A stretch of DNA of 64,000 nucleotides from Omnitrophica WOR_2 bacterium GWF2_43_52 (lineage in GTDB: Bacteria > Omnitrophota > Gorgyraeia > Gygaellales > UBA12090), in contig MHGF01000003.1 of NCBI GenBank assembly GCA_001805445.1, positions 54,736 through 118,735 on the forward strand. The letters run 5' to 3'. The notes beneath the pieces are model-generated. The model did no database searches, was not told where the DNA came from, and worked only from the letters and a program-made list of their open reading frames with translations. Positions 8,662 through 39,672 of the stretch are shown here, in pieces. The translations under genes and the position numbers were made by a program. Numbering within the stretch: position 1 is the first letter of the stretch; each line of letters starts with the position of its first letter.

Positions 8662-8761
8662 GTTTTGACGGTTACTAAACAAGCGGGAATTCATCCCTTC
8701 CTGTATCAGTCTACTGTATTCCATCCCTCGACAGTACAAAATTAAAAAAACTAAAAAAATA

Positions 8762-8790: not shown

Positions 8791-8807
8791 AATACACATT
8801 ATTAGCT

Positions 8808-9083
8808 ATGAAATCACGCAAAATCAAGGTTTTTACCAGATCTGATATAAAAAAGATAAAAGAAAAATACGAGAAGGATTTACTCCTGCTTCCTCATGTA
8901 GTCGGCGTAGGTATAGGGTATAAGATAACACAGGAAAGAGAGAAAAACACCCTTTGTCTAAAAGTATATGTGAGTAAAAAAACCCCTTCCAAAGAACTAT
9001 CCAAGAATAAAACAATCCCGACGCAGCTTGATGGTATTCTTACAGATGTTGAGGAAATCGGTATGGTAAAAGCCTATGCGTAA
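8808..9083 (+). CDS. Small protein (91 aa) paralogous to the N-terminal pro-like domain of the downstream serine protease
   Basis: It shares 'VVGVGIGYKI...LCLKVYV...IPTQLDGILTDVEEIGMVKAYA' with residues about 25-95 of ORF 9076-10002 ('VVGCGIGEKI...ICLKVYV...IPQAVSLIETDVEEIGKIKALGF'). Its stop overlaps the start of the next gene. Confidence 0.5.
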   Translation: MKSRKIKVFTRSDIKKIKEKYEKDLLLLPHVVGVGIGYKITQEREKNTLCLKVYVSKKTPSKELSKNKTIPTQLDGILTDVEEIGMVKAYA

Positions 9084-10002: not shown

Positions 10003-10106
10003 TTCTAATACCAGAAAATGGTACATCGCACGTTGAATATCAAATTGTCCTAAGTTTAAAACTTCCTTATTAAACGAGTGTAGTATTACTTAGAAGGTGC
10101 AATAGT

Positions 10107-18323: not shown

Positions 18324-18332
18324 CAAATACCT

Positions 18333-26399: not shown

Positions 26400-27104
26400 A
26401 TGGGCGTAGTCTTTGATACACTATCATATATAGCAAAGCTCGATCGGATGAACCAGTGGGTCTATAGAAAAGTGAGCCCCTATATAGGGAATAGAATTCT
26501 GGAGGCCGGTTGCGGCAACGGCAATATTACGTCATTGTTGCTGAATAAAGAGTTAGTTGTAGCGTTAGATAACGATGAAGCAATGATAGAAGAGACCAAA
26601 AGAAGGTATCGAGGGAAATCAAACATCATCGTTAAAAAGTTAGATTTATCTCATGTGCCGCTTTCTGAGCTGAAAAGTTTTGGTTTCGATACAATTTTGT
26701 GCATCAATGCCCTAGAGCATATCCTAGATGATTTTCGGGTATTAAATAATTTTAATGCTGTTTTACGAGATGATGGATATTTTGTTCTCATCGTTCCCGC
26801 TTTTAAGGAATTATTTTGTTCATTGGACAGGGCAGCTGGCCATTACAGACGATATACAAAGCGTGAACTAACGGCTAAGATACTTGCTTCCGGATTTGAC
26901 GATCTTACACTATGTTACGCCAATTTTTTCGGAATCTTCGGTTGGATCGTAAACGGGATAGTCTTTAGAAAAAAACGGCTCTCAACGAGAATGCTTGCAT
27001 TGTTTGATTACTTTGTCCCTTTTTTTGAGTGGTTTGAAAAAAAATCAGGGCCTCCAGTAGGGCTCTCTCTTATTGCTGTTTGCAGAAAGCATAATAAAAA
27101 ATGA
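26400..27104 (+). CDS. Class I SAM-dependent methyltransferase
   Basis: Motif I is 'ILEAGCGNGNIT'. 'DTILCINALEHI' is motif II-like. The size is 234 aa. The N-terminus may be incomplete (see rejected note on 26294-26399). Confidence 0.65.
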   Translation: MGVVFDTLSYIAKLDRMNQWVYRKVSPYIGNRILEAGCGNGNITSLLLNKELVVALDNDEAMIEETKRRYRGKSNIIVKKLDLSHVPLSELKSFGFDTILCINALEHILDDFRVLNNFNAVLRDDGYFVLIVPAFKELFCSLDRAAGHYRRYTKRELTAKILASGFDDLTLCYANFFGIFGWIVNGIVFRKKRLSTRMLALFDYFVPFFEWFEKKSGPPVGLSLIAVCRKHNKK

Positions 27105-28564
27105 AAGTTTTATTCTTCCATCGTAATGCAGAGTGGCTTGGTATTGAATATTTGTCAAGCGCGCTTAAAAAAGCGGGGCACGCAACTGAACTTATTTTCG
27201 ATCCTGGTGCCGGTGACGTTGAATACCAGTTTAAGTTTTTGGACCGTTTTTTTAATGTAACCGAAAACATGCTGAAAAAGGCCGAAGCTTATAAGCCTGA
27301 TCTTATTGCCTTCTCTTGCCTAACCAATCTTTACCCTTGGGTTTCGACTATGGTTGGTCTTCTTAAAGATCGTATGGACGTGCCGATAATTGTCGGAGGA
27401 TTGCATCCTACAATCCTTCCTGATTTTGTAATCGCTAATCCGCACATTGATATGATCTGCGTAGGTGAAGGTGAAGAGGCATTGGTAGAATTGGCAGATA
27501 GTATTGGGAACGGAAAGATAAATTATGAGATAAGGAATATTTGGTTTAAAAAAGATGGCCGTATAGTTAAGAATGCGTCCCGTCCTTTAATCCAGGATAT
27601 GGATGCCTTACCTTTTCCGGATAAGGATCTTTTCAGAAAGTACGGATGTTTTTCAAGCAGGATTTATGTAATGACCGGAAGAGGATGCCCTTTTCATTGC
27701 ACATATTGTTTTAACTCGTTTTACCGCGAAAAATTCTCTGGGAATGGATACTCTTATGTAAGGAGAAGAAGTGTGGAAAACGTAATGCGTGAGTTAGAGC
27801 ATTTTAAGGCTAAATATCGTTTGAGCGAAGTATTTTTCTATGATGACATCTTTAGCATAAACGACGCCTGGATAAAGGTTTTTTGCGCTGAGTACAAAAA
27901 AAGGATCAAACTTCCTTTTAAAGTCCTCGTTCATCCTCAAACTGTAAAAGAAGAGACCATGACAGCTCTTGCCGATGCCGGATGCATTTATGTTGATATA
28001 GGCCTTGAATCGGGAAATGAGGATTTAAGAAGAGCGCTGCTTAAAAGAAATATGAGTAATGATGATATCGTGAGGACCGGAAAAATCCTCAAAAAGGTAG
28101 GCATCAAATTCTGTACTTTGAATATCTTGGGCTTCCCCGGAGAAACGAAGGCGCAGATGTGGGACACTTACAAATTAAATGAAGCCTTACATCCTGATGG
28201 TGCCATTGTGTCTATTTTCTATCCCTTTCCTAAGACCGAACTCGCTGAATTCAGCTTAAAAAATGGATTTCTAAACGATTCTGATTACCAGAAAATATGT
28301 CAAGGAAAAGGGGGCTATAAATCGGGCTCTCTTTTGAATAATGTAGAAATCGCAGAAGCCTTGAAATTACAAATTCTCATCCCGGTGATGGTCAAGATGC
28401 CTCGCTTTTTACGGCCGCTACTCACGAAAATACCGGTAAATTCTTTTACTAGGATTTTTTCAATATTTTTCCTTTCCATACCGCGAAACGCTTATATCCG
28501 GATAAAGGAGTCAATAATTATGTTTATAAAATCGCACCTAGCCTATATAATGACAAAAAAATGA
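27101..28564 (+). CDS. B12-binding-domain radical SAM enzyme (class B), paralog 2
   Basis: The cobalamin-binding region is 'LIAFSCLTNLYPWV...IIVGGLHPT', followed by 'GEGEEAL'. The radical SAM motif is 'CPFHCTYC'. The size is 487 aa. Confidence 0.8.
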   Translation: MKVLFFHRNAEWLGIEYLSSALKKAGHATELIFDPGAGDVEYQFKFLDRFFNVTENMLKKAEAYKPDLIAFSCLTNLYPWVSTMVGLLKDRMDVPIIVGGLHPTILPDFVIANPHIDMICVGEGEEALVELADSIGNGKINYEIRNIWFKKDGRIVKNASRPLIQDMDALPFPDKDLFRKYGCFSSRIYVMTGRGCPFHCTYCFNSFYREKFSGNGYSYVRRRSVENVMRELEHFKAKYRLSEVFFYDDIFSINDAWIKVFCAEYKKRIKLPFKVLVHPQTVKEETMTALADAGCIYVDIGLESGNEDLRRALLKRNMSNDDIVRTGKILKKVGIKFCTLNILGFPGETKAQMWDTYKLNEALHPDGAIVSIFYPFPKTELAEFSLKNGFLNDSDYQKICQGKGGYKSGSLLNNVEIAEALKLQILIPVMVKMPRFLRPLLTKIPVNSFTRIFSIFFLSIPRNAYIRIKESIIMFIKSHLAYIMTKK

Positions 28565-29949
28565 AAGTCCTCCTTGTTAAACCATACAATCTAAGCGATC
28601 ATATACAACCGCCGTTAGGCTTAGGGTATTTGGCCACAGCTATTCGTGATAAGTGTAATGTCGCATTGCTGGATTGCATTAAAGAGCGAATCACTAAACC
28701 GGAAGCATTATTAACTATCATCAAAAAATATAAGCCAGATGTTCTCGGAATGCAGTGCTATACTTTTCATGTCAATTTTGTAAAAGAAACTTTTCGCCTC
28801 GTTAAAGGCTTCAATAAAGATATTATATGCGTCTCAGGAGGGCCTCATCTGTCCGCGGTCCCCCATGAGGCAATGCAACAGTTTTATCCCTTTATCGATT
28901 TTGGCTTTCAAGGAGAATCTGAGATAGGGTTGCCATTGCTGATAAATGAGCTGATCAAAGGCAAGGTTACTCCTGGGAATATCCCGGGGTTGTTATGGAT
29001 GGAAGATGGAATAGTTAGGGCAAATAGCCCAGCATTGGCGGATAATCTTGACACGCTTGGTTTTCCTGCATGGGATTTACTGAGACCGGATACGTATCCT
29101 GAATCTCAACATGGAGCGTTTTACCGTAAATTTCCTATTGCGCCGATCATAGTCACGCGTGGCTGTCCCTACCATTGCACATTCTGCGCGGCTAACAAAA
29201 TAGCAGGAAGAAAGCTAAGGAAACACAGCATTGCTTATGTCCTTGAACAGATGCAACTTCTTTATCATACATACGGTATCCGGGAATTTCATATTATTGA
29301 CGATAATTTTACTTTTGATGTCACATATGCCAAGAGTTTGCTCAACGGCATGATGAAGCTTAATCTTGATATTAGCTGGGCAACTCCTAACGGCATACGC
29401 TTAGACCGCATTGATGATGAGTTGCTGGGATTGATGAAGCAAAGCGGGCTTTATCTTATTTCTTTAGGTATAGAATCAGGTTCCGACCGCATACTCAAAA
29501 TTATGCGCAAAGGGACAACCGTTGCAGGGATAAGAAAAAGCGTTAAGATGATCAATAAGTCAGGGATTGATGTAGCCGGCTTCTTTATTTTAGGGTTTCC
29601 CGGAGAAACAAAGGATGATATCGAAAAGACTATTAGTTTGGCCTGCGAATTGGACTTAGTTCGCGCTAACTTCTTTACCTATCTTCCTTTTCCTGCCACA
29701 GACAGTTTTAATGAATTAAAAGCAAACGGTGGGTTGGATAACGTAGATTGGGATAATTTTTATTTTATGAGTGCCCCTTATGTCCCCGCGACAATGACCA
29801 GAAAGGAATTAAAGCGATTTCAACGCAAGGCTTTTTTCAGGTTTTTCTTCCGCCCTAAAATATTTATTAAAAATATCCTGCAGATAAAATCTTTTCAGCA
29901 CTTAAAATACTTGTTTCTGAGGCTATACCATTGGATTATAAAAAGCTAG
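28561..29949 (+). CDS. B12-binding-domain radical SAM enzyme (class B), paralog 3
   Basis: 'LLVKPYNLSDHIQPPLGLGYLATAI' starts the B12 domain. 'GESEIGL' is present. The radical SAM motif is 'CPYHCTFC'. The size is 462 aa. Confidence 0.8.
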   Translation: MKVLLVKPYNLSDHIQPPLGLGYLATAIRDKCNVALLDCIKERITKPEALLTIIKKYKPDVLGMQCYTFHVNFVKETFRLVKGFNKDIICVSGGPHLSAVPHEAMQQFYPFIDFGFQGESEIGLPLLINELIKGKVTPGNIPGLLWMEDGIVRANSPALADNLDTLGFPAWDLLRPDTYPESQHGAFYRKFPIAPIIVTRGCPYHCTFCAANKIAGRKLRKHSIAYVLEQMQLLYHTYGIREFHIIDDNFTFDVTYAKSLLNGMMKLNLDISWATPNGIRLDRIDDELLGLMKQSGLYLISLGIESGSDRILKIMRKGTTVAGIRKSVKMINKSGIDVAGFFILGFPGETKDDIEKTISLACELDLVRANFFTYLPFPATDSFNELKANGGLDNVDWDNFYFMSAPYVPATMTRKELKRFQRKAFFRFFFRPKIFIKNILQIKSFQHLKYLFLRLYHWIIKS

Positions 29950-31256
29950 GCAGATTTTTTTATTCTGAAAAAGTTCTCCTTATTGCAATATGTGTTGCCG
30001 CTCTGATAGTGCGCTTAGGGTTTATGTTTTACCATGATTTCCCTTTGTTTGCAGATGAACTTGAATATGACCGTTTAGCAGTATCACTTTTGGATGGTAA
30101 CGGATACGTAAGCAAGGCAGGTAATGCTACGGCAGGAAGGCCCCCTGGGTATCCACTGCTTGTAAGTACTGTTTACCTTGTTTTTGGACATGAAACTGCA
30201 GTAGTTAAGCTGTTGCAGGCAGCAATAGACAGCCTGACATGTCTTTTAATTTACTTTTTGGGGCGCTCTATTTTTAGTAAAAAAGTAGGATTATTGTCTG
30301 CAATAATTTCAATATTGCATGTAAGCTTTATCGCCCAGTCTTCAAAGCTGTTGACGGAAGGGGTATCGACCTTTTTATTATTGTGCGCGGTACTATTGTT
30401 TCGTAAAGCTTCTCTATCACGGAAAGCACTTTTGTACTGCTTAAGCGGTTTTTTTCTTGGAATTACGTGCATGGTTCGCTCAAATTTTCTTATCCTTAGT
30501 GCAATTTTCTTACTTTTTATGCTTTACGAGTTTTCAAGATTTCCGTTTCTCCGCGATAAACTCATCAAAGGTATGGGATGCTATACAATTGCTTTTTTGT
30601 TCGTTATTTTCCCTTGGAGTATAAGAAATTTTAAGCAATTCCATGCGTTTGTACCTATTTCAACTTTTCAAGGGTATGCTCTTTACGCATCATATAAGCC
30701 GGTAGACGGTAAGATGTATGGATTTGTTCCCTATGATAATGTCATGAAGGAAGCCAACAGCATTGCCTCGGAAACCCAACAGAGTAAATTCCTATCGAAA
30801 AAGGCATTTTTGTTACTTAAAGCTGATCCTCTGCTCTTTTTCAGGCTAATCCCGCTAAAAATTTGCTATTTTTTCAGTCCTTTGGACTGGGAATTAGTTT
30901 ACTCTAAGGTAATATATAACTATTCCTATGTATTTTATTTCCCCTTTTTTTTAACCGGCTTATTTACTTTTAGACATCGGTTACTTGAATTAAACGCATT
31001 ATATCTTCCGGTCATTGGAGTACTTATGTTTACGATTGTGTTATTTGGGATACCTAGATTTAGAATACCTATAGAGCCTTACATGATTATACTTTCAGCA
31101 GCGAGCATTATCCATGTCTATGACACAACGATTCGCAAGCGTAAGATGCTTTTGTGTTTGTGTGCATATTTTACAGCTAATTATGTTTTATTCATAAACT
31201 CGGAAGCAACAAAAATTGCTCTAAGATTTCTCTCACGGAAAGCTGGTCTTTGGTAA
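29931..31256 (+). CDS. GT-C fold membrane glycosyltransferase (GT39/GT83, ArnT/PMT-like)
   Basis: The first-loop motif 'FADELEYD' (DE...Y) follows TM1, as in ArnT/PMT. 'GRPPGYPLL' is present. There are about 10 or more TM segments. It lies downstream of a polyprenyl-P-sugar synthase. Confidence 0.6.
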   Translation: MDYKKLGRFFYSEKVLLIAICVAALIVRLGFMFYHDFPLFADELEYDRLAVSLLDGNGYVSKAGNATAGRPPGYPLLVSTVYLVFGHETAVVKLLQAAIDSLTCLLIYFLGRSIFSKKVGLLSAIISILHVSFIAQSSKLLTEGVSTFLLLCAVLLFRKASLSRKALLYCLSGFFLGITCMVRSNFLILSAIFLLFMLYEFSRFPFLRDKLIKGMGCYTIAFLFVIFPWSIRNFKQFHAFVPISTFQGYALYASYKPVDGKMYGFVPYDNVMKEANSIASETQQSKFLSKKAFLLLKADPLLFFRLIPLKICYFFSPLDWELVYSKVIYNYSYVFYFPFFLTGLFTFRHRLLELNALYLPVIGVLMFTIVLFGIPRFRIPIEPYMIILSAASIIHVYDTTIRKRKMLLCLCAYFTANYVLFINSEATKIALRFLSRKAGLW

Positions 31257-32674
31257 AAATGTTTAATAAAATCGTGATTTTCTTTCTTGGGGCATGTATC
31301 GGGCTTTTAGGTTTCTTCTCGCCCGGGGCATTATTTTTACTCATAGCTGTAGGGTTTACCTGCTTGGCTTTACGACATTATACCCACGGCAGGCAGAGAG
31401 TTTTTCTAATCTCTGTTTTTCTTATTGCATTTTGTATCAGGTTAATAGTGAGCCTTACATTAGATCTTTCCGCACTGGCCATATTTCCAAGCGCTGCGAT
31501 GCGCGAAGTCAAGAACCCCATTCCTGCAGATGATGATTATCAAAACCTTATAAAAGAAAATACGAGAACTTTTTTTAAAATTGGAGATAGCGATTATTCC
31601 TCAGCAAGAGGTTACATGTATGCCGCTGCTGCTCGAGGGATGGATAATAAGGTCATCCGTCATTATCTTGATCCTACCTCTTCATATGGCGTAAACGGGT
31701 ATTTATATGTAATCGGTATGTTTTATTTTCTTTTTGGCTATAGCCCAATTACGGTAAAATTCCTCAACTGCTATTTCGGTGCTGTAGCGGTTATCTTCAT
31801 ATATTTATTGGGGAGAAATTACAATGAAATTGCTGCGAGAATCGCTTGTTTTTTTATGATATTTTTCCCTTCGTTAATCTTGTGGTCAACAACTGATTTA
31901 AAAGACACTTCTACGATGCTGGCTTCTGTCTTGCTCGTTTATTCAATAACATTGATAATGCGAAAAATTACTTTATCTTCTCTATTGTTGATGATATTCG
32001 CTCTTTTGATGCAATTTTTCCTTACAAAAAGAGATCTCTGGTTTTTGTCCCTTATTTCTTTATTCCTCGTTTTTTTTACAGGCATCTTTTTCAACTTGTC
32101 ACAAAGGCAGAAAACGCGCTTATGTGTTTCTGTTATCCTGATTGCACTGCCGCTGGTATCCTTAACGCATATTTTTGATAATGCTGTAATAACAAGAATG
32201 CATAAGCTTTTTATCCACCATATTGGCAATGTGCATACGCAAGGTATTTCATATCGGGTTTTAGATGAAAGCTATTATCACGATCCTGATTCTATCTACG
32301 AAATGCCAACTCAAAAATTGATTACTTCTTCTATCATGGCTGTCATCCATTTCCTACTAGAGCCATTCCCGTCGAGATTCCTGCATAAAAACTTTATAGT
32401 GGTTTGGCCACAGATGATATTCTGGTATTCATTGATACCTTCAATTTTTCTAGGTATAATACTATTGTTGAGGAATTGTATGCAAAAATCACTCCCTGTT
32501 TTCATCTACACCTTTTTGACAACATGTTCAATCGCGATAGGAAGTGGTAATGTAGGAACAGTGTTCCGGCATAGAGATTACGTTACTCAATTTTATTTAT
32601 TATTTGCCGCGATCGGTATATCGAACTGTTTCAAGGCTAAAGAAGGGAAACGAGAAAATGAAGTCGTATTTTAG
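31250..32674 (+). CDS. Polytopic integral membrane protein, unknown function (possible second GT-C/acceptor-side partner)
   Basis: It is 474 aa, very hydrophobic throughout, and coupled to the upstream GT-C gene. I see no soluble catalytic motif. Confidence 0.45.
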   Translation: MVKMFNKIVIFFLGACIGLLGFFSPGALFLLIAVGFTCLALRHYTHGRQRVFLISVFLIAFCIRLIVSLTLDLSALAIFPSAAMREVKNPIPADDDYQNLIKENTRTFFKIGDSDYSSARGYMYAAAARGMDNKVIRHYLDPTSSYGVNGYLYVIGMFYFLFGYSPITVKFLNCYFGAVAVIFIYLLGRNYNEIAARIACFFMIFFPSLILWSTTDLKDTSTMLASVLLVYSITLIMRKITLSSLLLMIFALLMQFFLTKRDLWFLSLISLFLVFFTGIFFNLSQRQKTRLCVSVILIALPLVSLTHIFDNAVITRMHKLFIHHIGNVHTQGISYRVLDESYYHDPDSIYEMPTQKLITSSIMAVIHFLLEPFPSRFLHKNFIVVWPQMIFWYSLIPSIFLGIILLLRNCMQKSLPVFIYTFLTTCSIAIGSGNVGTVFRHRDYVTQFYLLFAAIGISNCFKAKEGKRENEVVF

Positions 32675-35546
32675 GCATTTAAGAGTACTTCAGGTAGTGG
32701 CTATCCTTAACCTTACGCTATTTTTGTCTGTGTTGCTCCTAATAGCTTTATTTTATGGGTTTTGGTACCAAAGCTTACCGGAAAATTCACCAATAAGGTC
32801 AAGGTTACAACTCGGCGCCATCATTTCAAAATTTGAACCCGGCTGGCTTTTTAGCGATTTGAGAAGTTTAAATATTCCTATCTATGATTTAGAAATTAAA
32901 CAAGTAAAGCTGCAAAAGATGTTAGAGGAATTACCGCCCTCTGATGCTCTTATGACCGATGAGTATAGGAAATTTGAATCTGCAAAGTTTAGTTTCGCAG
33001 GACAATCTTATAAGGTCAAAACCAGGATCCGCGGCCTAACCCCTAATCATTGGCAGGATGAAAAAAAGTCGTGGCGGATTAAGTTTAACTCAGACGCTTT
33101 ATTTAATCACACTAAGAGCTTGAATTTGATCATTCCTCAAGATAGAGGCTTTTTTGCGGAATATTTAAGTAATAGTATAGCGCGCAAGCTAAACCTGCTT
33201 ACTCCGCGGGACACTTTCGTCTTCCTGCGCCTCAATGGTGTGTTGCAAGGAGTCTACTATTCAATCGAAACGCCTAGCAAAGTATTTTTAGAATACAATC
33301 GAAAAGTAGATGATGCTAATTTTTACCGCGAAGATAACTGGGATTGGTTCAAATATGGTTTCGATCCGATATTTACAGATATCGGGCATTGGAAGAAAGA
33401 TAACAGTGAAACCTATTCTGGATTTGAAAATTACGCTGATATTGATTACTTATTGACTCTGTTAAATTCTTCAACCGATGAGACCTTTAATAAGGAGATA
33501 CCTGCTTTAATAGATATGGATGTTTTTTTACGTTGGCAGGCGCACTCTATGATAATGGGTAGCTATCATCAGTCAGAACATGGCAATAATAATCTATTTT
33601 TTAACCCTATCACAGGGAAGTTTGAATTCATGCCCTACGATCTTAATATCTTCCCTCTTGAAGGGCAATTCATCGATAAGCCGTATAATCCGCTGGTGAC
33701 AAGAATTTTAGAAAACAGGCGCTTTTTACATGAACGCAATACTATTTTATGGGACTATGTGAATAATCCCACTGATTTAGAAAATGATTTAAAGTTCTAT
33801 GATGATGCCTATCAGAAGTACAAGAAAGCCTTTTATGCAGATAGAAAGAAAGGATTTACAAATTCGAGTTTCGATAACACTGTTTCTCGGTTACGCCGAA
33901 TTTTTATTCAAAATCACAAAAAAATTATTGCTAATCTTGAATTTTGTGAAATTTTTGCCACTGTACATATACACCCAAAGAGCAATAAAATACTTGGTAG
34001 CCTAGATTTGGCACTACATGGCTTTAGTTCAGCAAAGCTCAGCGAGATCATTATACCTTTTTCTGCTGATTCTACGATAACCCAAGGGACCAAGGTTAAC
34101 ATCTATTATGACAGTAACGCATCAGAATATTTTGATGCTGAGGATACCTTTCTCACAAGCCTCACTGCTGACGCACAAAAAAAGTGTTTTAAGGGAGATA
34201 GTTTTTCATTGATGCTGTATTCGGCACGGGATGCCCAGTTGCAGCCAGTGAAGGCTCACTATAAGTTTTTCATTACCGGTAATGCTAACGAAGCAATGCA
34301 ACAGTCACTTGGAGCTATCAACATAGTTGCTTCGAATGCAGTTACAAAAAAACAACTCACACCGATTGTGCGTTGTGTAGATGGACGCCTTTTTTCATCA
34401 TTTCCTCAGGTTACTGCTTCCCTTGATGCCTTTTTGTTAGAATATCCCCAATTTAAGCAAGACGCCAATAGCTCCTTTACTGTGGTACTCGATGCTGGCG
34501 AATATATCATCGACCGGACAATAATTGTTCCTTCAGGTTTGACTTTAATCATTAATCCGGGAGTAGTTCTTAAATTCCAAAAGAGTATATCATTTTTATC
34601 ATACGCTAAGGTTGTGGCCATTGGAAACAAGGAGCATCCGATACGATTCACCGCGCTTGATAAAATTGAGCCTTGGGGGAATTTTGCTGTCATTGGCGAA
34701 AGTTCAGCCTCATCAGAGTTTTCATATTGTATTATTGAATATTCAGGGGAAAGTTATGTAAACGGCATTAAATTTTCTGGCGGCATATCCGTACACGACT
34801 CAGATGTGATAGTGCGTAATTGTATACTTCGCTATAGTTTTGGTGATGACGCGATTAATATTAAGTCCGCTCATTGCATCTTAGAGAATTCCGTGTTCTA
34901 TAAAAACTCATCCGATGCGATAGATTTCGATTTTGCCACCGGGGCGATCGAAAACAATTATATTTTGGATAATACCGGAGACGGTATTGACCTCTGCGGC
35001 ACTGATATTGTGATTGCAGGAAATCGAATAGAAAGTAGCGGGGATAAAGGCATAAGTGTTGGAGAAAGGTCGAAACCAGTTATAGTAAATAATCTGATTC
35101 GCTCCTGCAACATAGGTATTGCATCTAAAGACAAATCTGATGCACGTATTGTCAATTCTACTCTTGTTGATAATAAAACAGGAATTTCCCTCTATATGAA
35201 AAAACAGGTTTTTGGCCCGGCAGCCGTCGAGATACGTAACACAGTGCTATGGAATAATGAAAAAGAAATTATAGCTGACGCAGGTTCTGTTATAGCAATA
35301 AGCGAAAGCACTCTTTCTCTAGGAGCAGAAGGAACATATATCTCTAATTTTACCCCATTGTTTGTAGATATAAAAAATGGGAATTATCTGCTAACTGACA
35401 GCAGAAAAGATTCAACAGGAAAGATTCCTAAAAGCAATATAACATATCTTAAAGATATGCCACAATTCAAGGATCTAAAAGACGCGAACATCGGAATCCT
35501 CACCAACCCCGAAGTAATGTCGTTTGATGATTTCAGCGTGCCCTAA
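32658..35546 (+). CDS. CotH-kinase-family protein with N-terminal membrane anchor and C-terminal right-handed parallel beta-helix (pectin-lyase-like) repeats
   Basis: The N-terminal TM is 'VVAILNLTLFLSVLLLIALFY'. The central CotH-like region is 'YKVKTRIRGLTPNHWQDEKKSWRIKF...LNLIIPQDRG...'. The C-terminus has repeated beta-helix rungs such as 'NCILRYSFGDDAINI', 'ENSVFYKNSSDAIDF', 'ENNYILDNTGDGIDL', 'AGNRIESSGDKGISV' and 'NNLIRSCNIGI'. The likely ATG at 32658 is used; the track start at 32604 overlaps the upstream gene by 70 nt. Confidence 0.6.
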   Translation: MKSYFRHLRVLQVVAILNLTLFLSVLLLIALFYGFWYQSLPENSPIRSRLQLGAIISKFEPGWLFSDLRSLNIPIYDLEIKQVKLQKMLEELPPSDALMTDEYRKFESAKFSFAGQSYKVKTRIRGLTPNHWQDEKKSWRIKFNSDALFNHTKSLNLIIPQDRGFFAEYLSNSIARKLNLLTPRDTFVFLRLNGVLQGVYYSIETPSKVFLEYNRKVDDANFYREDNWDWFKYGFDPIFTDIGHWKKDNSETYSGFENYADIDYLLTLLNSSTDETFNKEIPALIDMDVFLRWQAHSMIMGSYHQSEHGNNNLFFNPITGKFEFMPYDLNIFPLEGQFIDKPYNPLVTRILENRRFLHERNTILWDYVNNPTDLENDLKFYDDAYQKYKKAFYADRKKGFTNSSFDNTVSRLRRIFIQNHKKIIANLEFCEIFATVHIHPKSNKILGSLDLALHGFSSAKLSEIIIPFSADSTITQGTKVNIYYDSNASEYFDAEDTFLTSLTADAQKKCFKGDSFSLMLYSARDAQLQPVKAHYKFFITGNANEAMQQSLGAINIVASNAVTKKQLTPIVRCVDGRLFSSFPQVTASLDAFLLEYPQFKQDANSSFTVVLDAGEYIIDRTIIVPSGLTLIINPGVVLKFQKSISFLSYAKVVAIGNKEHPIRFTALDKIEPWGNFAVIGESSASSEFSYCIIEYSGESYVNGIKFSGGISVHDSDVIVRNCILRYSFGDDAINIKSAHCILENSVFYKNSSDAIDFDFATGAIENNYILDNTGDGIDLCGTDIVIAGNRIESSGDKGISVGERSKPVIVNNLIRSCNIGIASKDKSDARIVNSTLVDNKTGISLYMKKQVFGPAAVEIRNTVLWNNEKEIIADAGSVIAISESTLSLGAEGTYISNFTPLFVDIKNGNYLLTDSRKDSTGKIPKSNITYLKDMPQFKDLKDANIGILTNPEVMSFDDFSVP

Positions 35547-35558
35547 GGTTTCTAAAGT

Positions 35559-36299
35559 ATGAGCATAGAACGGTTCCATATACATAGGTTCGAGTTTAAG
35601 TATCCATTATCCGACAGGCAGTATTCGGCATTTAAAAATGAGCTTTTGCAGTATGTGGATTATGACGAACATTGCCTTGTTAATTCTGATAAAGCTTATA
35701 TGGTGCACTCCTTATATCATGATAGTCCAGCTAACACTTATTTCTGGGAGAAAGCCGACGGATTGCGAAACAGGAAGAAATTTCGCTTTAGAGTTTATGA
35801 TCTGAGCCCTGATAATGAACCGGATATCTACTTAGAAATTAAAAGAAAAACAGATTTTACTATCATTAAGGATAGGGCAAAACTTGATTTTGAAACGTAT
35901 GTATCCGCAGAGAACGGCTCGCCTCTGAAAATGCTTGAGGCCAAGAATATTCCGTCTGATCAAAGGAAAATCATTGAGGAATTTGTATGCGATTCACTTC
36001 GTTTGCATTTAAGGCCTAAGGTGCTAATATCTTATAAGCGCGAAGCATTTACTGCAAAATACCATAAAAATATCCGGATTACTTTTGACAGCCAAATAAA
36101 AAGTTATAAAACAGGCAACATCTTTTCGCCATTTAAACAACCGCACTCGGTTTACACTGAAGGAGTTATTTTAGAACTTAAGTTTAAAGGATCGTTACCG
36201 GAATGGTTTCACTTTTTGGTCCAGAAATATAATTTAGTCAAAGATACCTATTCCAAATATTTTATGTCTATGGTCGAATCGTATAGTCTATCTGTTTAA
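35559..36299 (+). CDS. VTC-domain (CYTH-like triphosphate-tunnel, 'polyphosphate polymerase domain') protein
   Basis: The size is 246 aa. 'YLEIKRK' is an ExExK-like tunnel motif. It follows a CotH gene and precedes a DUF4956-like gene, which is the recurrent CotH/VTC/DUF4956 neighbourhood. Confidence 0.5.
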   Translation: MSIERFHIHRFEFKYPLSDRQYSAFKNELLQYVDYDEHCLVNSDKAYMVHSLYHDSPANTYFWEKADGLRNRKKFRFRVYDLSPDNEPDIYLEIKRKTDFTIIKDRAKLDFETYVSAENGSPLKMLEAKNIPSDQRKIIEEFVCDSLRLHLRPKVLISYKREAFTAKYHKNIRITFDSQIKSYKTGNIFSPFKQPHSVYTEGVILELKFKGSLPEWFHFLVQKYNLVKDTYSKYFMSMVESYSLSV

Positions 36300-36317
36300 T
36301 GAGAGAGGAGTAAATAT

Positions 36318-37004
36318 ATGGGCAACATACTTACAATGGGAGGAGACTACGTTATTGGAGATAATCTGGTTTCAATCGCTATGAATATATCTCTGTCATT
36401 TGTTCTTGGCCTACTTATTGCTACTGTTTATAAAAAAACGCACAAGGGCGTATCGTACTCACAGTCTTTTACTCAGACACTCCTGATTTTAACGGTTATT
36501 TCTACGAGCGCCATGATGGTTATTGGAAGCAGCTTAGCCAAGGCCTTTGGGATGGCTGGAGCGCTTTCCATAATTCGCTTTCGTACAGTAGTCAAGGATC
36601 CTAAAGATATCGGTTTTGTTTTCTTGGCTTTGGTGATTGGAATGGCGTGTGGTACACAAGGGTATTTGATCGCTATTACTACTGCTGCATTACTAACGAT
36701 TATTATTATATCATTGACTAAAGTAAACTTTGGTTCTATTAAAAAGCATAATTTTGTCTTGCGTTATTACCAACAAATGAATCTTATCTCAAATGAAGAG
36801 GTTCACGATTTATTACGCACGTATTTAAAATCCTGTGTTTTATTGAGCATGTTATCACATGAGTCAGGGAAAACATTTGAATTTTCATACAATGTTGATT
36901 TTATAAGTAAAAACGAACAAAATGATTTACTGAAAGAGTTGAGCGCGCGCAAGGGCATCAGTAATGTTTATCTTTTAAATGCGTCAAACGATATAGAGTA
37001 TTGA
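36318..37004 (+). CDS. DUF4956-like small membrane protein
   Basis: It has 3-4 TM segments. 'GALSIIRFRTVVKDPKDIGFVF' resembles the conserved 'RFRT..KD..D' core I recall for DUF4956. Its context after the VTC gene supports the call. Confidence 0.45.
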   Translation: MGNILTMGGDYVIGDNLVSIAMNISLSFVLGLLIATVYKKTHKGVSYSQSFTQTLLILTVISTSAMMVIGSSLAKAFGMAGALSIIRFRTVVKDPKDIGFVFLALVIGMACGTQGYLIAITTAALLTIIIISLTKVNFGSIKKHNFVLRYYQQMNLISNEEVHDLLRTYLKSCVLLSMLSHESGKTFEFSYNVDFISKNEQNDLLKELSARKGISNVYLLNASNDIEY

Positions 37005-37017
37005 TCGTAAAAAAACA

Positions 37018-39672
37018 ATGAAAATTTCGTTAATTTATCCATTATTATCCAGAGCCAGAAGCTTACTTGACGAGAATAAACAATATTGGCCGCCTCTGGG
37101 TTTGGCCTATATCGCTGCGGTACTCGAAAAAAAAGGCCATAGTGTGCAGATTTTAGATAGAGACCTTATTTTACGCAGGAGCAGTTTCGACTTTGACAAG
37201 ACTGATACGATAACCTTAGGGTTGATTAAGGATTTTGGCGCGCAGATTGTCGGTTTTAGCGCGACCACGCCCAATATCTCGGATATAAACTTTTTTTCGT
37301 CAAAAATCAAGAGCATGCTTCCGGGAATGCTCATGGTAATTGGCGGGCCGCATTGTTCCGGTGAACCTGTTGAAACATTAGAAATATGCAAGAATATAGA
37401 TGTCCTTGTCAGAGGTGAAGGAGAGATCACTATGCAAGAAATAGCCAGCGGAGCCCTTATTGACGGTATTGCTGGATTGACATACAGGAGTACGCGCCAA
37501 GGAATCGTTTCTAACATTGACAGGCCGTTGATCGAGGCACTCGATGAGTTACCTTTTCCTGCAAGGCATTTGCTTGATATGGATTATTATACAAGGCCAA
37601 GCAGATTTACTAGCAGAAACCATTCTTTCAGAACGACGCATATTTTTACTGCTCGAGGATGTCCTTATAACTGTCATTACTGCGCAGGGCCTTTAATGGG
37701 GAGGATGACAGTAAGGTATCATTCTGCGCATAGGTTAATCGACGAGATCAAAGAGCTTATCAGTAAATATTCAGTAGAGGCTATTTATTTCGCTGATGAT
37801 ATGTTCTTAAGTAACAAAAAACGCGCCATGGAAATAATCGACTTATTTATTACAAACAGATTGCACAAGAAAATTTCTTGGATCGCACAAATAAACCCAA
37901 ACGTGGCGGATAAAGAGCTCTTATCAGCCATGAAAGAGGCCGGATGCATCCACGTCGAATACGGTTTTGAATCTGGTTCCCAACGAGTTCTAGGGCTTAT
38001 GAATAAAAGGACAAATGTTTTACGCAATAAGGAAGTCGTTAAACTAACGCGAAAGGTAGGCCTTCATTTCCAAGGAAATTTTATCGTTGGATATCCTGGA
38101 GAAACAGAAGACGACTTTGCCGAAACTGTCTCCTTTATAAGAGAAACACGCCCTAATATGGTCTCGATGAATTTATTTATGCCATTGCCGGGAACAGATA
38201 TATACAGAAAACTCAAGCAGAGCGGATGTCTTAATACAAATTGGGATGATTTTGGCAATCCAGACGCGCCTTACATAAATTACGCCGATATGCCGAAATC
38301 TCGTTTCGAGGAGCTTTATTTTCGCGCCAAATTAAAAGTGGTCCTACCAATAAATCTGTTTAATTTTATTAAAAGTAACCTATTGCACCCGCTTAGGCTT
38401 ATCTATGTGTTAATAACCCAATTTAAAGGTGTGTTAAAACGCGCTTTTAAAGCGGCGGCAGAACTCAAGAGAATAGGCAAGAAACATAATCCGCAACCGA
38501 TAGTCCTGCTGGTAGCGTACCACTCTATCACTTATCCGATTATGGAATCCCAGGGGATTTCGTACATTAAAAAATTATCGCACTACGGAATTCAATATTT
38601 TATTCTGACGTACGAAACTCGGGATACTCTTGCTCGATATAAAATAGCAGATACTGACCTCAAGCTGCAAACGAACTGGCATCATCTGTATTATCATAAA
38701 AACCCCAGATTGCTTGCTACGCTCTTTGATGTTATCTGTGGGATGTGGTATGTTTTCTTTATTGTACGCAAAAGCAGGATTAATATAGTGCATGCCAGAG
38801 GTCTAGTGCCAGCGGTTATTGCCTTTTTACCTGCAAAGATAATGGGAGTTAAATTCTTTTTTGATACGAGGGGGCTGCTTGCAGACAAATATGTAGGTGG
38901 GGGATTGCTAAAAAATAAAAGTTTAACGTATAGAGTGATGCGTTTCGCCGAAAATTTTTTAATACAACAATCTGATTCCTTTACTGTCGAAACTATTAGG
39001 CATGCGCAAGTAATCCGTAATAGCAACGTTAGTCTTTCTTCAAAGATGGAAGTGATTCCTTCTTGCGTAGATTTGGATAAATTTAAATGCGATACTTCAA
39101 AACCAGACAGCGGAAAATTTAAGTTAGCCTATATAGGGAAATGCGGAAGCTGGTATATGCTTGATGAGATGTTTGACTTTTTCCGTGTTCTCTTAAAAAT
39201 CTCTTCACAGGCTGTATTTATGCTTGCTACTGATCGAGATCCGAATGAAATCTTTCGCGCTGCGATGCGAAAAGGTATTCCTGAAGACAGCATAGTGGTA
39301 AAAAACCTTTCGCATGCCGAGGTAGCCGGTTTTCTCTCGCGCGCGAGCGCGGGGATATTTTTTATCAACCCGTACAAACGTTATAATTCTTCTCCTACAA
39401 AATATGGAGAATATCTTGCCTGTGGCCTTCCGGTGGTAATCAACAGCGGTATTGGAGATACTGAAGAGATAACTACAAAAATGAATATTGGCGTTATAAT
39501 AAATACTTTTTCAGAAGCATCATATGAATCTGCGGCTAGAAAGCTTCTTGATTTGTGTAAAGACGCCACAAGCGTTCAGACACGCTGTAAGCAGGCTGCC
39601 GAAGAACTTCTTTCACTGAAAAAAGGCGCTGAAAAATATCGCGATATTTTTCAGCACTTGCTAAAGATTTGA
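37018..39672 (+). CDS. Fusion protein: B12-binding radical SAM (class B) N-terminal half + GT4 glycosyltransferase C-terminal half
   Basis: The N-terminal half has 'ISLIYPLLSRARS...WPPLGLAYIAAVL' (B12 domain), 'GEGEITM' and the radical SAM 'CPYNCHYC'. The C-terminal ~380 aa are a GT-B/GT4 with 'FINPYKRYNSSPTKYGEYLACGLPVVINS' in the E-x7-E region. The total is 884 aa. Confidence 0.75.
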   Translation: MKISLIYPLLSRARSLLDENKQYWPPLGLAYIAAVLEKKGHSVQILDRDLILRRSSFDFDKTDTITLGLIKDFGAQIVGFSATTPNISDINFFSSKIKSMLPGMLMVIGGPHCSGEPVETLEICKNIDVLVRGEGEITMQEIASGALIDGIAGLTYRSTRQGIVSNIDRPLIEALDELPFPARHLLDMDYYTRPSRFTSRNHSFRTTHIFTARGCPYNCHYCAGPLMGRMTVRYHSAHRLIDEIKELISKYSVEAIYFADDMFLSNKKRAMEIIDLFITNRLHKKISWIAQINPNVADKELLSAMKEAGCIHVEYGFESGSQRVLGLMNKRTNVLRNKEVVKLTRKVGLHFQGNFIVGYPGETEDDFAETVSFIRETRPNMVSMNLFMPLPGTDIYRKLKQSGCLNTNWDDFGNPDAPYINYADMPKSRFEELYFRAKLKVVLPINLFNFIKSNLLHPLRLIYVLITQFKGVLKRAFKAAAELKRIGKKHNPQPIVLLVAYHSITYPIMESQGISYIKKLSHYGIQYFILTYETRDTLARYKIADTDLKLQTNWHHLYYHKNPRLLATLFDVICGMWYVFFIVRKSRINIVHARGLVPAVIAFLPAKIMGVKFFFDTRGLLADKYVGGGLLKNKSLTYRVMRFAENFLIQQSDSFTVETIRHAQVIRNSNVSLSSKMEVIPSCVDLDKFKCDTSKPDSGKFKLAYIGKCGSWYMLDEMFDFFRVLLKISSQAVFMLATDRDPNEIFRAAMRKGIPEDSIVVKNLSHAEVAGFLSRASAGIFFINPYKRYNSSPTKYGEYLACGLPVVINSGIGDTEEITTKMNIGVIINTFSEASYESAARKLLDLCKDATSVQTRCKQAAEELLSLKKGAEKYRDIFQHLLKI

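What the first reader, a model, noticed from the sequence alone, without database searches (positions are those of the whole stretch)
32658..37004. CotH-kinase / VTC-domain / DUF4956 triad embedded inside a polysaccharide locus, with a membrane-anchored CotH carrying a beta-helix
The 963-aa protein has three parts. It starts with an N-terminal TM anchor. Next comes a CotH-like atypical-kinase region. Last is a long right-handed parallel beta-helix, seen as repeating 'x-N/D-x-I-x-x-S/G-x-D-x-I-x' rungs. Such helices are typical of carbohydrate-binding or carbohydrate-modifying proteins. It is followed by a VTC/CYTH-like 'polyphosphate polymerase domain' protein and a small DUF4956-like membrane protein. 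I recall this triad as a recurrent gene neighbourhood of unknown function. Its position here suggests an activity on, or coupled to, the exported glycan. Examples would be phosphorylation or polyphosphate-linked modification of a cell-surface polymer, or a kinase acting on a glycan or glycoprotein, rather than spore-coat assembly. The roles of all three partners are uncharacterised.
Basis: partly seen in the sequence, partly recalled or inferred. Interest (0 to 1): 0.6.

Follow-up and report, generated by a model that had tools for sequence, protein, structure and literature searches.

The report
Surface-glycan CotH / polyphosphate-polymerase / membrane-protein gene trio
Three neighbouring genes in a cell-surface sugar locus encode an outward-facing kinase-like enzyme fused to a sugar-binding domain, an inward-facing polyphosphate-polymerase-like enzyme and a small membrane protein; the trio recurs across many bacterial phyla and may show how bacteria phosphorylate surface polymers outside the cell, where there is no ATP.

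Summary
Three co-directional genes lie at 32658-37004:
- a membrane-anchored CotH + beta-sandwich + beta-helix protein of 962 aa (not 963);
- a 246-aa VTC protein;
- a 228-aa DUF4956 protein.

All three pass Pfam thresholds. They sit in a 64-kb LPS/O-antigen-type glycan locus of an Omnitrophota genome.

The trio is not new. It has been described as accessory genes of Gram-positive Pel loci, with function unknown. This is a distinct variant, found in many phyla.

What I add:
- VTC keeps every residue that yeast Vtc4 needs for polyphosphate synthesis, including the Lys that marks active Vtc4.
- DUF4956 has an MgtC-like build: five helices plus a cytoplasmic ACT-like domain.
- VTC and DUF4956 are the constant core, adjacent in 73 of 80 loci. 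Their partner is a CotH protein, or a MacA/EmrA-like periplasmic adaptor, sometimes with T9SS-secreted CotH.
- In the beta-helix CotH clade the catalytic Asp is replaced by a conserved His. The Asn, the metal-binding Asp and a Lys shared with B. cereus CotH are kept.

Best model, inferred and not shown: VTC and DUF4956 supply (poly)phosphate across the membrane to an extracytoplasmic CotH phosphotransferase acting on the glycan. Confidence about 0.4.

The parts
32658..35546 (+). Gene for a 962-aa membrane-anchored CotH / beta-sandwich / right-handed beta-helix protein
   Evidence: ORF. Pfam CotH, Beta_helix and NosD. 100% identical to P0001 from Omnitrophica WOR_2 bacterium GWF2_43_52. AF2 pLDDT 88.7.
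32685..32780 (+). N-terminal signal-anchor helix (about aa 10-41). Predicted N-in/C-out, which places the rest of the protein outside the cytoplasmic membrane.
   Evidence: Hydrophobic window 13-31, KD 2.81. 30 of 32 homologues have such a segment. K+R is 117 on the N side against 77 on the C side; N>C in 23 of 30. Topology is predicted, not shown.
32865..33941 (+). CotH (atypical kinase fold) domain, about aa 70-428
33567..33587 (+). Catalytic loop H304-Q-S-E-H-G-N310. His replaces the catalytic Asp (B. subtilis D228). The Asn is kept.
   Evidence: Alignments. In 52 CotH domains of DUF4956-anchored loci, His 39, Asn 51, and Asp at the canonical position only 5. Some members have H-x4-N, the same spacing as D-x4-N. 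D228Q and D251A inactivate B. subtilis CotH (PMC7821199).
33639..33641 (+). D328, equivalent of the metal-binding (DFG-like) Asp D251 of B. subtilis CotH
   Evidence: Aligned to the PWD motif of B. cereus CotH. Asp in 49 of 52.
33945..34382 (+).
   Evidence: AF2 secondary structure. No Pfam hit.
34455..35393 (+). Right-handed parallel beta-helix (about aa 600-912), closest to periplasmic polysaccharide epimerases and lyases
35559..36299 (+). VTC-domain (triphosphate-tunnel, Vtc4-like polyphosphate polymerase domain) protein, 246 aa, soluble and cytoplasmic
   Evidence: Pfam VTC 1.4e-37. Profile against the yeast Vtc4 catalytic domain 3g3q, E 1e-16. Equivalents of K200, R264, R266, R361, E426 and K458 invariant, and of K281, Y359 and S457 in at least 90%, across 121 cluster representatives. 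No TM segment in 120 of 121.
36318..37004 (+). DUF4956 membrane protein, 228 aa: five helices (17-136) plus a C-terminal ACT-like domain (146-221). MgtC-like build.
29931..32674 (+). Context: two polytopic GT-C-like (PMT_2/ArnT-like) membrane glycosyltransferase genes directly upstream. The second overlaps the CotH start by 17 nt.
   Evidence: Pfam PMT_2 and PMT for 29931-31256. The orthologue of 31250-32674 in L001 has a weak PMT_2 hit, and the same gene order is present in L001; L003 also has GT-C genes (PMT_2, YfhO, PMT) upstream of its CotH.
37018..39672 (+). Context: downstream 884-aa fusion of a B12-binding radical-SAM enzyme and a GT4 glycosyltransferase
   Evidence: Pfam. NCBIfam B12-rSAM methyltransferase-like hits.

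Best explanation
The three genes form one envelope-modification module that spans the cytoplasmic membrane.

Shown by computation:
- The VTC protein is a soluble cytoplasmic triphosphate-tunnel enzyme. It keeps the full set of residues that yeast Vtc4 uses to make polyphosphate from ATP.
- DUF4956 is an MgtC-like five-helix membrane protein. Its ACT-like domain and its conserved basic loops face the cytoplasm.
- The large protein is anchored by one N-terminal helix. Its CotH kinase-fold domain and an AlgG-like beta-helix are predicted to lie on the periplasmic side.
- VTC and DUF4956 are the invariant core of the system across phyla.

Inferred mechanism:
1. VTC polymerises, or at least handles, a (poly)phosphate chain at the inner face of the membrane.
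2. DUF4956, probably as an oligomer, docks VTC and passes the chain across the membrane. This would be a bacterial analogue of the eukaryotic VTC synthase-translocase.
3. The CotH domain has no ATP available outside the cytoplasm. It uses this exported phosphoanhydride donor to phosphorylate, or polyphosphorylate, the nascent LPS/O-antigen-type glycan, which the beta-helix holds in register.
4. The neighbouring GT-C glycosyltransferases, which also act on the outer face, may work on the same substrate.

The conserved His in place of the catalytic Asp suggests altered chemistry in this clade. It could act as the general base or as a phospho-His intermediate.
For: 1. Tight operon: spacers of 12 and 18 nt, and overlap with the upstream GT-C gene.
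2. Synteny: 7 of 7 CotH-homologue contigs carry VTC and DUF4956 with varying gene order. In 80 DUF4956-anchored loci from GTDB species genomes, 73 have VTC; 72 of those 73 are on the same strand, with a median gap of 50 nt. At least 54 have CotH.
3. VTC active site: the profile hits Vtc4 better than the inactive Vtc2/3. K14=K200, R76/R78=R264/R266, K95=K281, Y159/R161=Y359/R361, E206=E426, S232/K233=S457/K458. These are the residues whose mutation lowers polyP, and K458 is the residue that distinguishes active Vtc4 (bioRxiv 10.1101/2023.01.27.525886).
4. Export role of the core: in 13 of 80 loci a MacA/EmrA-like periplasmic adaptor abuts VTC-DUF4956, with no ABC, MFS or RND partner found among the flanking genes scanned in five of these loci (L053, L061, L075, L078, L083). 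Ten of these 13 loci have no CotH detected within the stretch held. In two of them the next genes are CotH proteins with T9SS sorting domains and a canonical D-x4-N loop.
5. CotH location: N-terminal anchor in 30 of 32, with a positive-inside bias. Firmicute homologues carry signal peptides. The S. intermedius homologue is predicted to be secreted (PMC12345266).
6. The CotH site is under selection: K136 47/52, N310 51/52, D328 49/52, H304 39/52.
7. The beta-helix is closest to periplasmic polysaccharide-modifying enzymes.
8. Glycosyltransferases and methyltransferases are the commonest neighbours, and the window itself is a glycan locus.
9. Established knowledge: known periplasmic phospho-modifications use non-ATP donors. 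LpxT uses undecaprenyl-PP and EptA uses phosphatidylethanolamine.
Against: - No activity has been shown for any bacterial VTC-domain, DUF4956 or extracytoplasmic CotH protein in the literature I could search.
- In S. intermedius, deleting the VTC gene gave no aggregation phenotype, whereas deleting the CotH and DUF4956 genes did, and with opposite effects on Pel level. That is not what strict dependence would predict.
- The DUF4956 membrane part shows no detectable relation to the Vtc1-type channel or to any solved transporter.
- No VTC-DUF4956 fusions appear among the best 150 VTC hits or the best 120 DUF4956 hits.
- Bacterial VTC proteins carry a Glu (E12) where Vtc4 has Thr198. This is half of the ExExK motif of hydrolytic tunnel enzymes, so they could be triphosphatases.
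- I know of no kinase-fold enzyme that uses polyphosphate as donor or His as the catalytic residue, so the CotH domain could be a pseudokinase.
- Five of 47 well-flanked loci have VTC-DUF4956 with neither CotH nor an adaptor.
- Only about a fifth of the flanking genes elsewhere are recognisably glycan-related.
- Topologies are predictions.
Confidence: 0.4

Rival explanations
1. The core pair exports polyphosphate itself as a surface polyanion. The CotH/beta-helix protein does not use it as a donor. Instead it tethers or ligates the polyP chain to the glycan, or simply binds both.
For: This rests on the same evidence as the main model for synthesis and export: VTC residues and the adaptor association. 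Ten of the 13 adaptor loci have no CotH detected in the stretch held, so export alone may be a complete function. The beta-helix carries several conserved Lys residues (K736, K797, K824, K848, K849).
Against: The CotH active-site residues (Lys, Asn, metal-binding Asp, His) are strongly conserved. That argues for catalysis rather than passive binding. Ligation of polyP to a glycan has no known precedent.
Confidence: 0.15
2. The three proteins are only loosely coupled. VTC and DUF4956 act as a cytoplasmic phosphate/energy-homeostasis or regulatory pair: MgtC-like control of the ATP synthase or PhoR, with an ACT-domain sensor and a tunnel enzyme working as a tri/polyphosphatase. They tune polysaccharide output. 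CotH acts independently.
For: DUF4956 has an MgtC-like build. MgtC is a regulator and not a transporter (as summarised in PMC12345266). E12 resembles the motif of hydrolytic tunnel enzymes. The S. intermedius DUF4956 mutant makes more Pel and the CotH mutant less, while the VTC mutant has no phenotype. Five of 47 loci lack both CotH and an adaptor.
Against: This does not explain why the pair is so regularly next to extracytoplasmic CotH proteins or to a periplasmic adaptor that has no other inner-membrane partner. It also does not explain why the Vtc4-specific Lys (K458 equivalent) is invariant.
Confidence: 0.2
3. The beta-helix is the catalytic part: an AlgG-, lyase- or hydrolase-like enzyme that epimerises, trims or sets the length of the glycan. 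The CotH domain, lacking its catalytic Asp, is a pseudokinase used as a binding or regulatory module.
Against: The conserved D/N-x-I rung residues are the generic PbH1 repeat signature. No AlgG-type DPHD motif or PL6 catalytic motif was identified. The His, Asn, Asp and Lys conserved in the CotH pocket over sequences only 20% identical are atypical of a dead enzyme. CotH proteins without a beta-helix also occur in trios.
Confidence: 0.15
4. CotH is an ATP-dependent Ser/Thr protein kinase that regulates the polysaccharide machinery or phosphorylates surface proteins. This is the suggestion made for Pel loci.
For: B. subtilis CotH is a protein kinase (PMC7821199). The hypothesis is put forward in PMC7112168.
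Against: The predicted location is extracytoplasmic, where there is no ATP. The catalytic Asp is replaced. The domain is fused to a polysaccharide-type beta-helix. This model gives no role to VTC and DUF4956.
Confidence: 0.1

Closest known systems
Accessory gene set cotH / polyphosphate-polymerase (VTC) / DUF4956 (/DUF4832) of Gram-positive Pel loci; S. intermedius SIR_1594/1593/1592 (PMC7112168, PMC12345266)
   Same: The same three families sit side by side next to exopolysaccharide genes. CotH is predicted to be secreted. DUF4956 is described there too as an MgtC-like TM domain plus an ACT domain. Function is unknown.
   Different: The locus here is a Wzx/Wzy, LPS/O-antigen-type locus of a candidate-phylum diderm, with no pel genes or DUF4832 detected. 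CotH is membrane-anchored and fused to a beta-sandwich and a beta-helix rather than to FN3. The catalytic Asp is replaced by His. The 2025 paper states the synteny was not found outside Pel loci, and my survey shows it is widespread outside them.
C. perfringens NELoc-2 (VTC / 'tubulin-FtsZ' = DUF4956 / CotH / hypothetical / HEAT / chitin-synthase-like GT; PMC2879425) and the same order on a Planococcus maritimus plasmid (L089)
   Same: The trio sits next to a polysaccharide synthase.
   Different: The gene order differs. CotH lacks a beta-helix. The P. maritimus CotH keeps the Asp but lacks the catalytic-loop Asn.
Eukaryotic VTC complex (Vtc4/Vtc3 or Vtc2/Vtc1), a coupled polyP synthase-translocase
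   Same: The catalytic tunnel domain is homologous (E 1e-16) and all triphosphate- and Mn-binding residues are conserved. It is obligatorily paired with a membrane protein that has conserved basic residues on the cytoplasmic face.
   Different: There is no SPX domain. The catalytic domain is a separate soluble protein. The membrane partner is MgtC-like (DUF4956) and not Vtc1-like. E12 stands in place of Thr198. Activity and translocation are untested.
CotH spore-coat kinases (B. subtilis, B. cereus) and the Fam20 / POMK secretory-pathway kinases
   Different: There are no spores. The protein is membrane-anchored and extracytoplasmic. His stands in place of the catalytic Asp, and a glycan-type beta-helix is fused to it.
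MgtC / SapB / YhiD family
   Different: It is a separate Pfam family with its own invariant motifs (YKKTHKGxSYSQSF, IIRFRTxVKDxKD, C-terminal DIEY). It is always next to a VTC gene.
AlgG / AlgE C5-epimerases, PL6/PL9 lyases, phage tailspikes, NosD (right-handed beta-helix proteins)
   Same: The fold and size of the C-terminal domain match. AlgG is likewise periplasmic and acts on a nascent exopolysaccharide.
   Different: There is no detectable sequence relation beyond the repeat signature. No catalytic motif of those enzymes was identified.

Membership tests
CotH kinase family (PF08757) | Sequence match to the family model above the curated threshold | tested here: met
   85.2 bits against a cut-off of 23.8. 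Profile against 5jd9, E 3e-36.
CotH kinase family (PF08757) | CotH atypical-kinase fold | tested here: met
CotH kinase family (PF08757) | Catalytic Asp (B. subtilis D228; the D228Q mutant is inactive) | tested here: not met
   His304 or Gln305 lies at that position. Asp occurs in only 5 of 52 related domains. D228Q is from PMC7821199.
CotH kinase family (PF08757) | Metal-binding Asp (D251) and catalytic-loop Asn | tested here: met
   D328 and N310, conserved in 49 and 51 of 52.
CotH kinase family (PF08757) | ATP-dependent phosphorylation of a substrate | not testable with these tools
   Needs an enzyme assay.
Vtc4-type polyphosphate polymerase (VTC domain, PF09359) | Sequence match to the VTC domain | tested here: met
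   129.9 bits against a cut-off of 23. Profile against Vtc4 3g3q, E 1e-16.
Vtc4-type polyphosphate polymerase (VTC domain, PF09359) | Triphosphate- and Mn-binding residues K200, R264, R266, K281, Y359, R361, E426, S457 | tested here: met
   K14, R76, R78, K95, Y159, R161, E206 and S232 are invariant or at least 90% conserved in 121 representatives. Residue list.
Vtc4-type polyphosphate polymerase (VTC domain, PF09359) | Lys458, which distinguishes active Vtc4 from inactive Vtc2/Vtc3 | tested here: met
   K233 is invariant in 121 sequences.
Vtc4-type polyphosphate polymerase (VTC domain, PF09359) | SPX regulatory domain and Vtc1-type three-helix channel subunits | tested here: not met
   Only the VTC domain is found in the 246-aa protein. 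The membrane partner is DUF4956, with no relation to VTC chains in the PDB by profile.
Vtc4-type polyphosphate polymerase (VTC domain, PF09359) | PolyP synthesis from ATP coupled to membrane transit | not testable with these tools
   Needs biochemistry.
DUF4956 (PF16316) / MgtC-like | Family model match; polytopic N-terminal domain plus ACT-like C-terminal domain | tested here: met
Gram-positive Pel accessory cluster (pelDEADAFG + cotH-PPP-DUF4956-DUF4832) | Trio of cotH, VTC and DUF4956 genes side by side | tested here: met
Gram-positive Pel accessory cluster (pelDEADAFG + cotH-PPP-DUF4956-DUF4832) | Contiguity with pel synthase genes and a DUF4832 gene | tested here: not met
   Pfam scans of 51 of the 53 listed window ORFs of 150 aa or more (the two not scanned are - strand ORFs inside + strand genes) gave Wzx/Wzy, GT9, NeuB and similar hits, and no Pel or DUF4832 family.
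Right-handed parallel beta-helix (PF13229) | Repeat signature and fold | tested here: met

The most novel reading that the evidence does not exclude
Bacteria have their own version of the eukaryotic VTC machine. A Vtc4-like tunnel polymerase is docked on an MgtC-like membrane protein and extrudes polyphosphate across the cytoplasmic membrane. In some diderms it does so through a MacA/EmrA-type adaptor. The exported polyphosphate is the phosphoryl donor for a large, overlooked class of extracytoplasmic CotH-fold phosphotransferases that decorate LPS, capsules, Pel and other surface polymers. The beta-helix clade would use a His-based mechanism, possibly through a phospho-histidine.
Probability: 0.25. 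Interest if true: 0.85.

Novelty: new variant of a known kind. Interest (0 to 1): 0.62.

Why it matters
How anything gets phosphorylated outside the bacterial cytoplasm, where there is no ATP, is solved only for a few lipid-donor cases. This module is very common. The VTC profile finds 14,105 clusters at 50% identity and DUF4956 has 3,667 detected homologues. It occurs from CPR bacteria and SAR11 to gut Bacteroidales and streptococci, it sits next to surface-polymer genes, and it already has virulence- and aggregation-linked phenotypes in S. intermedius. If the core pair is a polyP synthase-exporter, that would give bacteria a third route to polyP besides PPK1 and PPK2. It would also provide a source of extracellular polyP and a donor for surface-glycan phosphorylation. 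All of these can be tested directly with the residues and cultured strains named here.

Tried and rejected
- Single-sequence PDB searches for VTC and DUF4956 found nothing useful. Only the VTC profile worked. The DUF4956 profile found nothing.
I anchored on DUF4956 instead. The 80 loci are therefore the closest relatives of the window's DUF4956 and are a biased sample.
- I looked for Rosetta-stone fusions between VTC and DUF4956 or CotH. None appear among the best 150 VTC hits or the best 120 DUF4956 hits. Apparent long ORFs in high-GC loci (L036, L041, L043, L067, L080) are probably artefacts of my first-start ORF caller, though I did not check them individually.
- My first CotH HMM, built from the beta-helix clade, missed divergent CotH proteins of Bacteroidota and Ignavibacteria. 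This was corrected with Pfam and a second HMM. CotH counts remain lower bounds.
- NCBIfam has no named model for any of the three proteins.
- Rfam found no RNA family in the window.
- The AFDB fold library was unavailable.
- The original CotH structure paper (PNAS 2016) is not held. The catalytic residues are therefore taken from PMC7821199 and from the spacing of the motifs in 5jd9.
- I considered that the trio is spore-related and rejected it on taxonomy and topology.
- I considered that the minus-strand ORFs inside the genes (for example 34406-34693) are real and rejected it, because they lie within well-supported + strand genes.
Full report
**What is there**

The finding's coordinates hold three co-directional genes:
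- 32658-35546, 962 aa from the ATG.
- 35559-36299, 246 aa.
- 36318-37004, 228 aa.

The spacers are 12 and 18 nt, and the first gene overlaps the upstream gene by 17 nt.

Pfam confirms every domain call above the curated thresholds: CotH 7.7e-24, Beta_helix 6.2e-16, VTC 1.4e-37, DUF4956 8.5e-14.

The large protein is 100% identical to a hypothetical protein of Omnitrophica WOR_2 bacterium GWF2_43_52.

Every ORF of 150 aa or more that I scanned (51 of the 53 listed) lies on the + strand, and most have glycan-biosynthesis domains. They include:
- GT9 heptosyltransferases, a Kdo-transferase-like protein and Wzy_C/O-antigen-ligase-like proteins;
- two Wzx flippases;
- NeuB, a CMP-transferase and a 2-epimerase;
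- many GT1, GT2 and GT4 enzymes and methyltransferases;
- seven B12-radical-SAM enzymes, three SPASM radical-SAM enzymes and four AsnB-like amidotransferases;
- a carbamoyltransferase.

Two GT-C (PMT_2-like) membrane glycosyltransferase genes directly precede the trio.

**The large protein**

A 32-sequence alignment gave an AF2 model with pLDDT 88.7. It shows:
- an N-terminal helix at 2-38;
- a CotH domain at about 70-428;
- a beta-helix at about 600-912.

Thirty of 32 homologues have an N-terminal hydrophobic segment. K+R counts favour N-in/C-out: 117 against 77, with N>C in 23 of 30. The CotH and beta-helix parts are therefore predicted to be periplasmic.

**The CotH active site**

B. subtilis CotH is inactivated by D228Q and by D251A (PMC7821199). 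In B. cereus CotH these residues are the Asp of N-F-D-G-F-V-H-N and the Asp of P-W-D. The 23-residue spacing matches.

Here the loop reads S-Y-H304-Q-S-E-H-G-N310 ... P-Y-D328.
- N310 and D328 are conserved, and so is K136, which aligns with a Lys of B. cereus CotH. In 52 CotH domains from related loci the counts are 51, 49 and 47.
- The catalytic Asp is missing. Asp occurs at that position in only 5 of 52.
- A His is present in 39 of 52, and it is invariant in the 32-sequence family.
- Several members have H-x4-N, exactly the canonical D-x4-N spacing. The His therefore occupies the catalytic-base position.

This is specific to the clade:
- T9SS-type CotH proteins of Bacteroidota trios keep D-x4-N.
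- The two Firmicute trio CotH proteins I examined keep the Asp but lack the Asn.

The domain is a CotH by sequence and fold, but it fails one defining catalytic feature. The conservation pattern looks like altered chemistry rather than decay.

**The VTC protein**

A 20-sequence profile hits the yeast Vtc4 catalytic domain at E 1e-16. It scores better there than on the inactive Vtc2 and Vtc3.

Counting along that alignment gives these equivalences:

| Window VTC | Yeast Vtc4 |
|---|---|
| K14 | K200 |
| R76 / R78 | R264 / R266 |
| K95 | K281 |
| K104 | K294 |
| Y159 / R161 | Y359 / R361 |
| R173 | R373 |
| E206 | E426 |
| S232 / K233 | S457 / K458 |

The cryo-EM study of VTC reports K200, R264, R266, K281, R361, K458, S457 and Y359 as the triphosphate ligands needed for polyP synthesis. 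It reports E426 as the Mn ligand, and K458 as the one residue that separates active Vtc4 from Vtc2 and Vtc3.

An exhaustive search found 14,105 clusters at E<=1e-3. The top 150 are all stand-alone proteins of about 200-350 aa, nearly all 230-280 aa. In an alignment of 121 of them (25-36% identity to the query) these residues are invariant or at least 90% conserved.

One difference remains. E12 replaces Vtc4 Thr198 and recalls the ExExK motif of hydrolytic tunnel enzymes.

The protein has no TM segment (120 of 121) and no SPX domain.

**DUF4956**

The family is large, with 3,667 hits. Some members also score on the MgtC Pfam model.

The K/R-rich loops (38-48, 88-94 and 137-150) all lie on one face, which implies an N-out/C-in topology. 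These loops carry the family's invariant motifs. The C-terminal D-I-E-Y tail is also invariant.

The membrane part has no detectable relative among solved structures.

**Distribution and partners**

All seven contigs I pulled for CotH homologues, down to 24% identity, carry VTC and DUF4956 next to CotH. The gene order varies and all sit among glycan genes.

A DUF4956-anchored scan of GTDB species genomes returned 80 loci. They come from:
- Patescibacteria;
- Gamma- and Alphaproteobacteria, including Pelagibacter;
- Planctomycetota and Omnitrophota;
- Desulfobacterota and Bacteriovoracales;
- Fermentibacteria, Bacteroidota, Ignavibacteriota and Kiritimatiellales.

With my own HMMs:
- 73 of 80 have VTC. 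Of these, 72 of 73 are on the same strand, with a median of 50 nt between homology ends, and VTC comes first in 68.
- At least 54 of 80 have CotH. The commonest order is CotH-beta-helix > VTC > DUF4956, as in the window (30 loci).

VTC and DUF4956 are therefore the constant core.

In 13 loci a gene of about 360 aa lies next to the core, directly abutting it in 12. Ten of these loci have no CotH detected in the stretch held. Its profile hits the periplasmic adaptors MacA (2.7e-11), EmrA (1.2e-9) and AcrA. Among the flanking genes I scanned in five of these loci (L053, L061, L075, L078, L083), none is an ABC, MFS or RND pump. In L076 and L078 the next genes are CotH proteins of 1,100-1,300 aa. 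Both in L078 carry T9SS sorting domains.

Of 47 loci with at least 5 kb on both sides:

| Partners of DUF4956 | Loci |
|---|---|
| VTC + CotH | 33 |
| VTC + CotH + adaptor | 2 |
| VTC + adaptor | 5 |
| VTC only | 5 |
| CotH only | 1 |
| Neither | 1 |

Pfam on 144 genes flanking 44 trios shows methyltransferases (9), GT1/GT4 (8), GT2 (6), extra beta-helix proteins (5) and UDP-glucose dehydrogenases (3) as the commonest of 133 families. Glycan genes are thus the leading neighbours but not universal ones.

Two cultured carriers were found on plasmids: Pseudobutyrivibrio xylanivorans pNP95, where the trio lies in an EPS locus, and Planococcus maritimus.

**What is already known**

The trio was described as accessory genes downstream of pelDEADAFG in streptococci, clostridia and bifidobacteria (PMC7112168).

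In S. intermedius, deleting the DUF4956 gene raised Pel and deleting the CotH gene lowered it. Both reduced aggregation. Deleting the VTC gene had no aggregation phenotype. The authors reported not finding the synteny outside Pel loci (PMC12345266).

C. perfringens NELoc-2 has the same genes next to a chitin-synthase-like glycosyltransferase (PMC2879425).

I found no paper that tests an activity of any of the three in this context.

**Most likely mechanism**

Shown by computation:
- operon structure;
- domain identities;
- conserved active-site residues;
- predicted topologies;
- conserved synteny and its alternative partners.

Inferred:
1. VTC makes, or at least threads, a phosphate chain at the inner face of the membrane.
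2. DUF4956 is its membrane dock and conduit.
3. The periplasmic CotH domain uses the exported phosphoanhydride as donor to phosphorylate the glycan bound by the beta-helix. The adjacent GT-C enzymes act on the same face.

The logic is that extracytoplasmic kinase-fold enzymes lack ATP. Known periplasmic phospho-transfers use other donors, such as LpxT and EptA (established knowledge). The only thing these CotH proteins share across phyla is a Vtc4-like polymerase tied to a membrane protein, and in some diderms that pair is wired to a trans-periplasmic adaptor.

I put this at about 0.4.

The main counter-evidence:
- the silent VTC mutant in S. intermedius;
- the lack of any homology between DUF4956 and known channels;
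- the absence of gene fusions;
- the E12 motif;
- the lack of precedent for a polyP-using or His-based kinase-fold enzyme.

The rivals are scored separately: polyP exported as a surface polymer, a regulatory MgtC-like pair, a catalytic beta-helix with a pseudokinase, and an ATP-dependent protein kinase.

**Verdict**

This is a new variant of a known but functionally unsolved module. It is membrane-anchored, fused to a beta-helix and of the His type, and it sits in an LPS-type locus. The survey yields a concrete, testable hypothesis for the whole family.

Noticed in passing
window 37018-39672: A single 884-aa ORF fuses a B12-binding radical-SAM enzyme (aa 17-374) to a GT4/GT1 glycosyltransferase (aa 519-862). 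It lies directly downstream of the trio. This is an unusual fusion that suggests coupled C-methylation (or another radical modification) and transfer of a sugar.
   Followed up: partly
window 17322-19424, 21143-22702, 27101-29949, 49650-51071, 53869-54876, 56696-58171; AsnB-like at 10107, 40831, 54883, 61355: One glycan locus holds seven B12-binding radical-SAM genes (including the fusion above), three SPASM radical-SAM genes and four AsnB-like amidotransferases. The density of radical and amidation chemistry is very high for an O-antigen-type cluster.
   Followed up: no
L053, L061, L073, L075, L076, L078, L079, L081, L083, L084, L085, L086 (e.g. L076:1016-2095): In Bacteroidota, Ignavibacteriota and Kiritimatiellales loci, a MacA/EmrA-like periplasmic adaptor gene abuts VTC-DUF4956. 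No canonical pump was found among the flanking genes scanned in five of these loci (L053, L061, L075, L078, L083). L076 and L078 continue with CotH proteins of 1,100-1,300 aa; both in L078 carry T9SS sorting domains.
   Followed up: partly
window 36318-37004 and alignment A2: The DUF4956 family has an invariant extreme C-terminal motif, D-I-E-Y-COOH. It also has invariant cytoplasmic-loop motifs YKKTHKGxSYSQSF and IIRFRTxVKDxKD. These are candidate docking or phosphate-binding sites.
   Followed up: no
L088 (Pseudobutyrivibrio xylanivorans pNP95) 7224-10363; L089 (Planococcus maritimus plasmid) 5389-8245: These are plasmid-borne trios in cultured Firmicutes. Their CotH keeps the N-x-D Asp but lacks the catalytic-loop Asn. 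So at least three different catalytic-loop types of CotH are paired with VTC-DUF4956.
   Followed up: partly
L030, L038, L045 (Fermentibacteria-like loci): Two or three tandem CotH paralogues follow VTC-DUF4956. In L030 one paralogue has D-x4-N and another lacks the Asp.
   Followed up: no
L005 15948-17021 and L006 16091-17092: A second, stand-alone beta-helix protein of about 340 aa lies a few genes downstream of the trio, next to heptose-nucleotide synthesis genes. Five such extra beta-helix neighbours were also seen in the 144-gene survey.
   Followed up: no
window 29931-31256: The GT-C-like protein upstream of the trio has a weak NCBIfam hit to the Leptospira LA_3751/LA_3752 putative glycosyltransferase family: 1.9e-9, well below the cut-off.
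   Followed up: no
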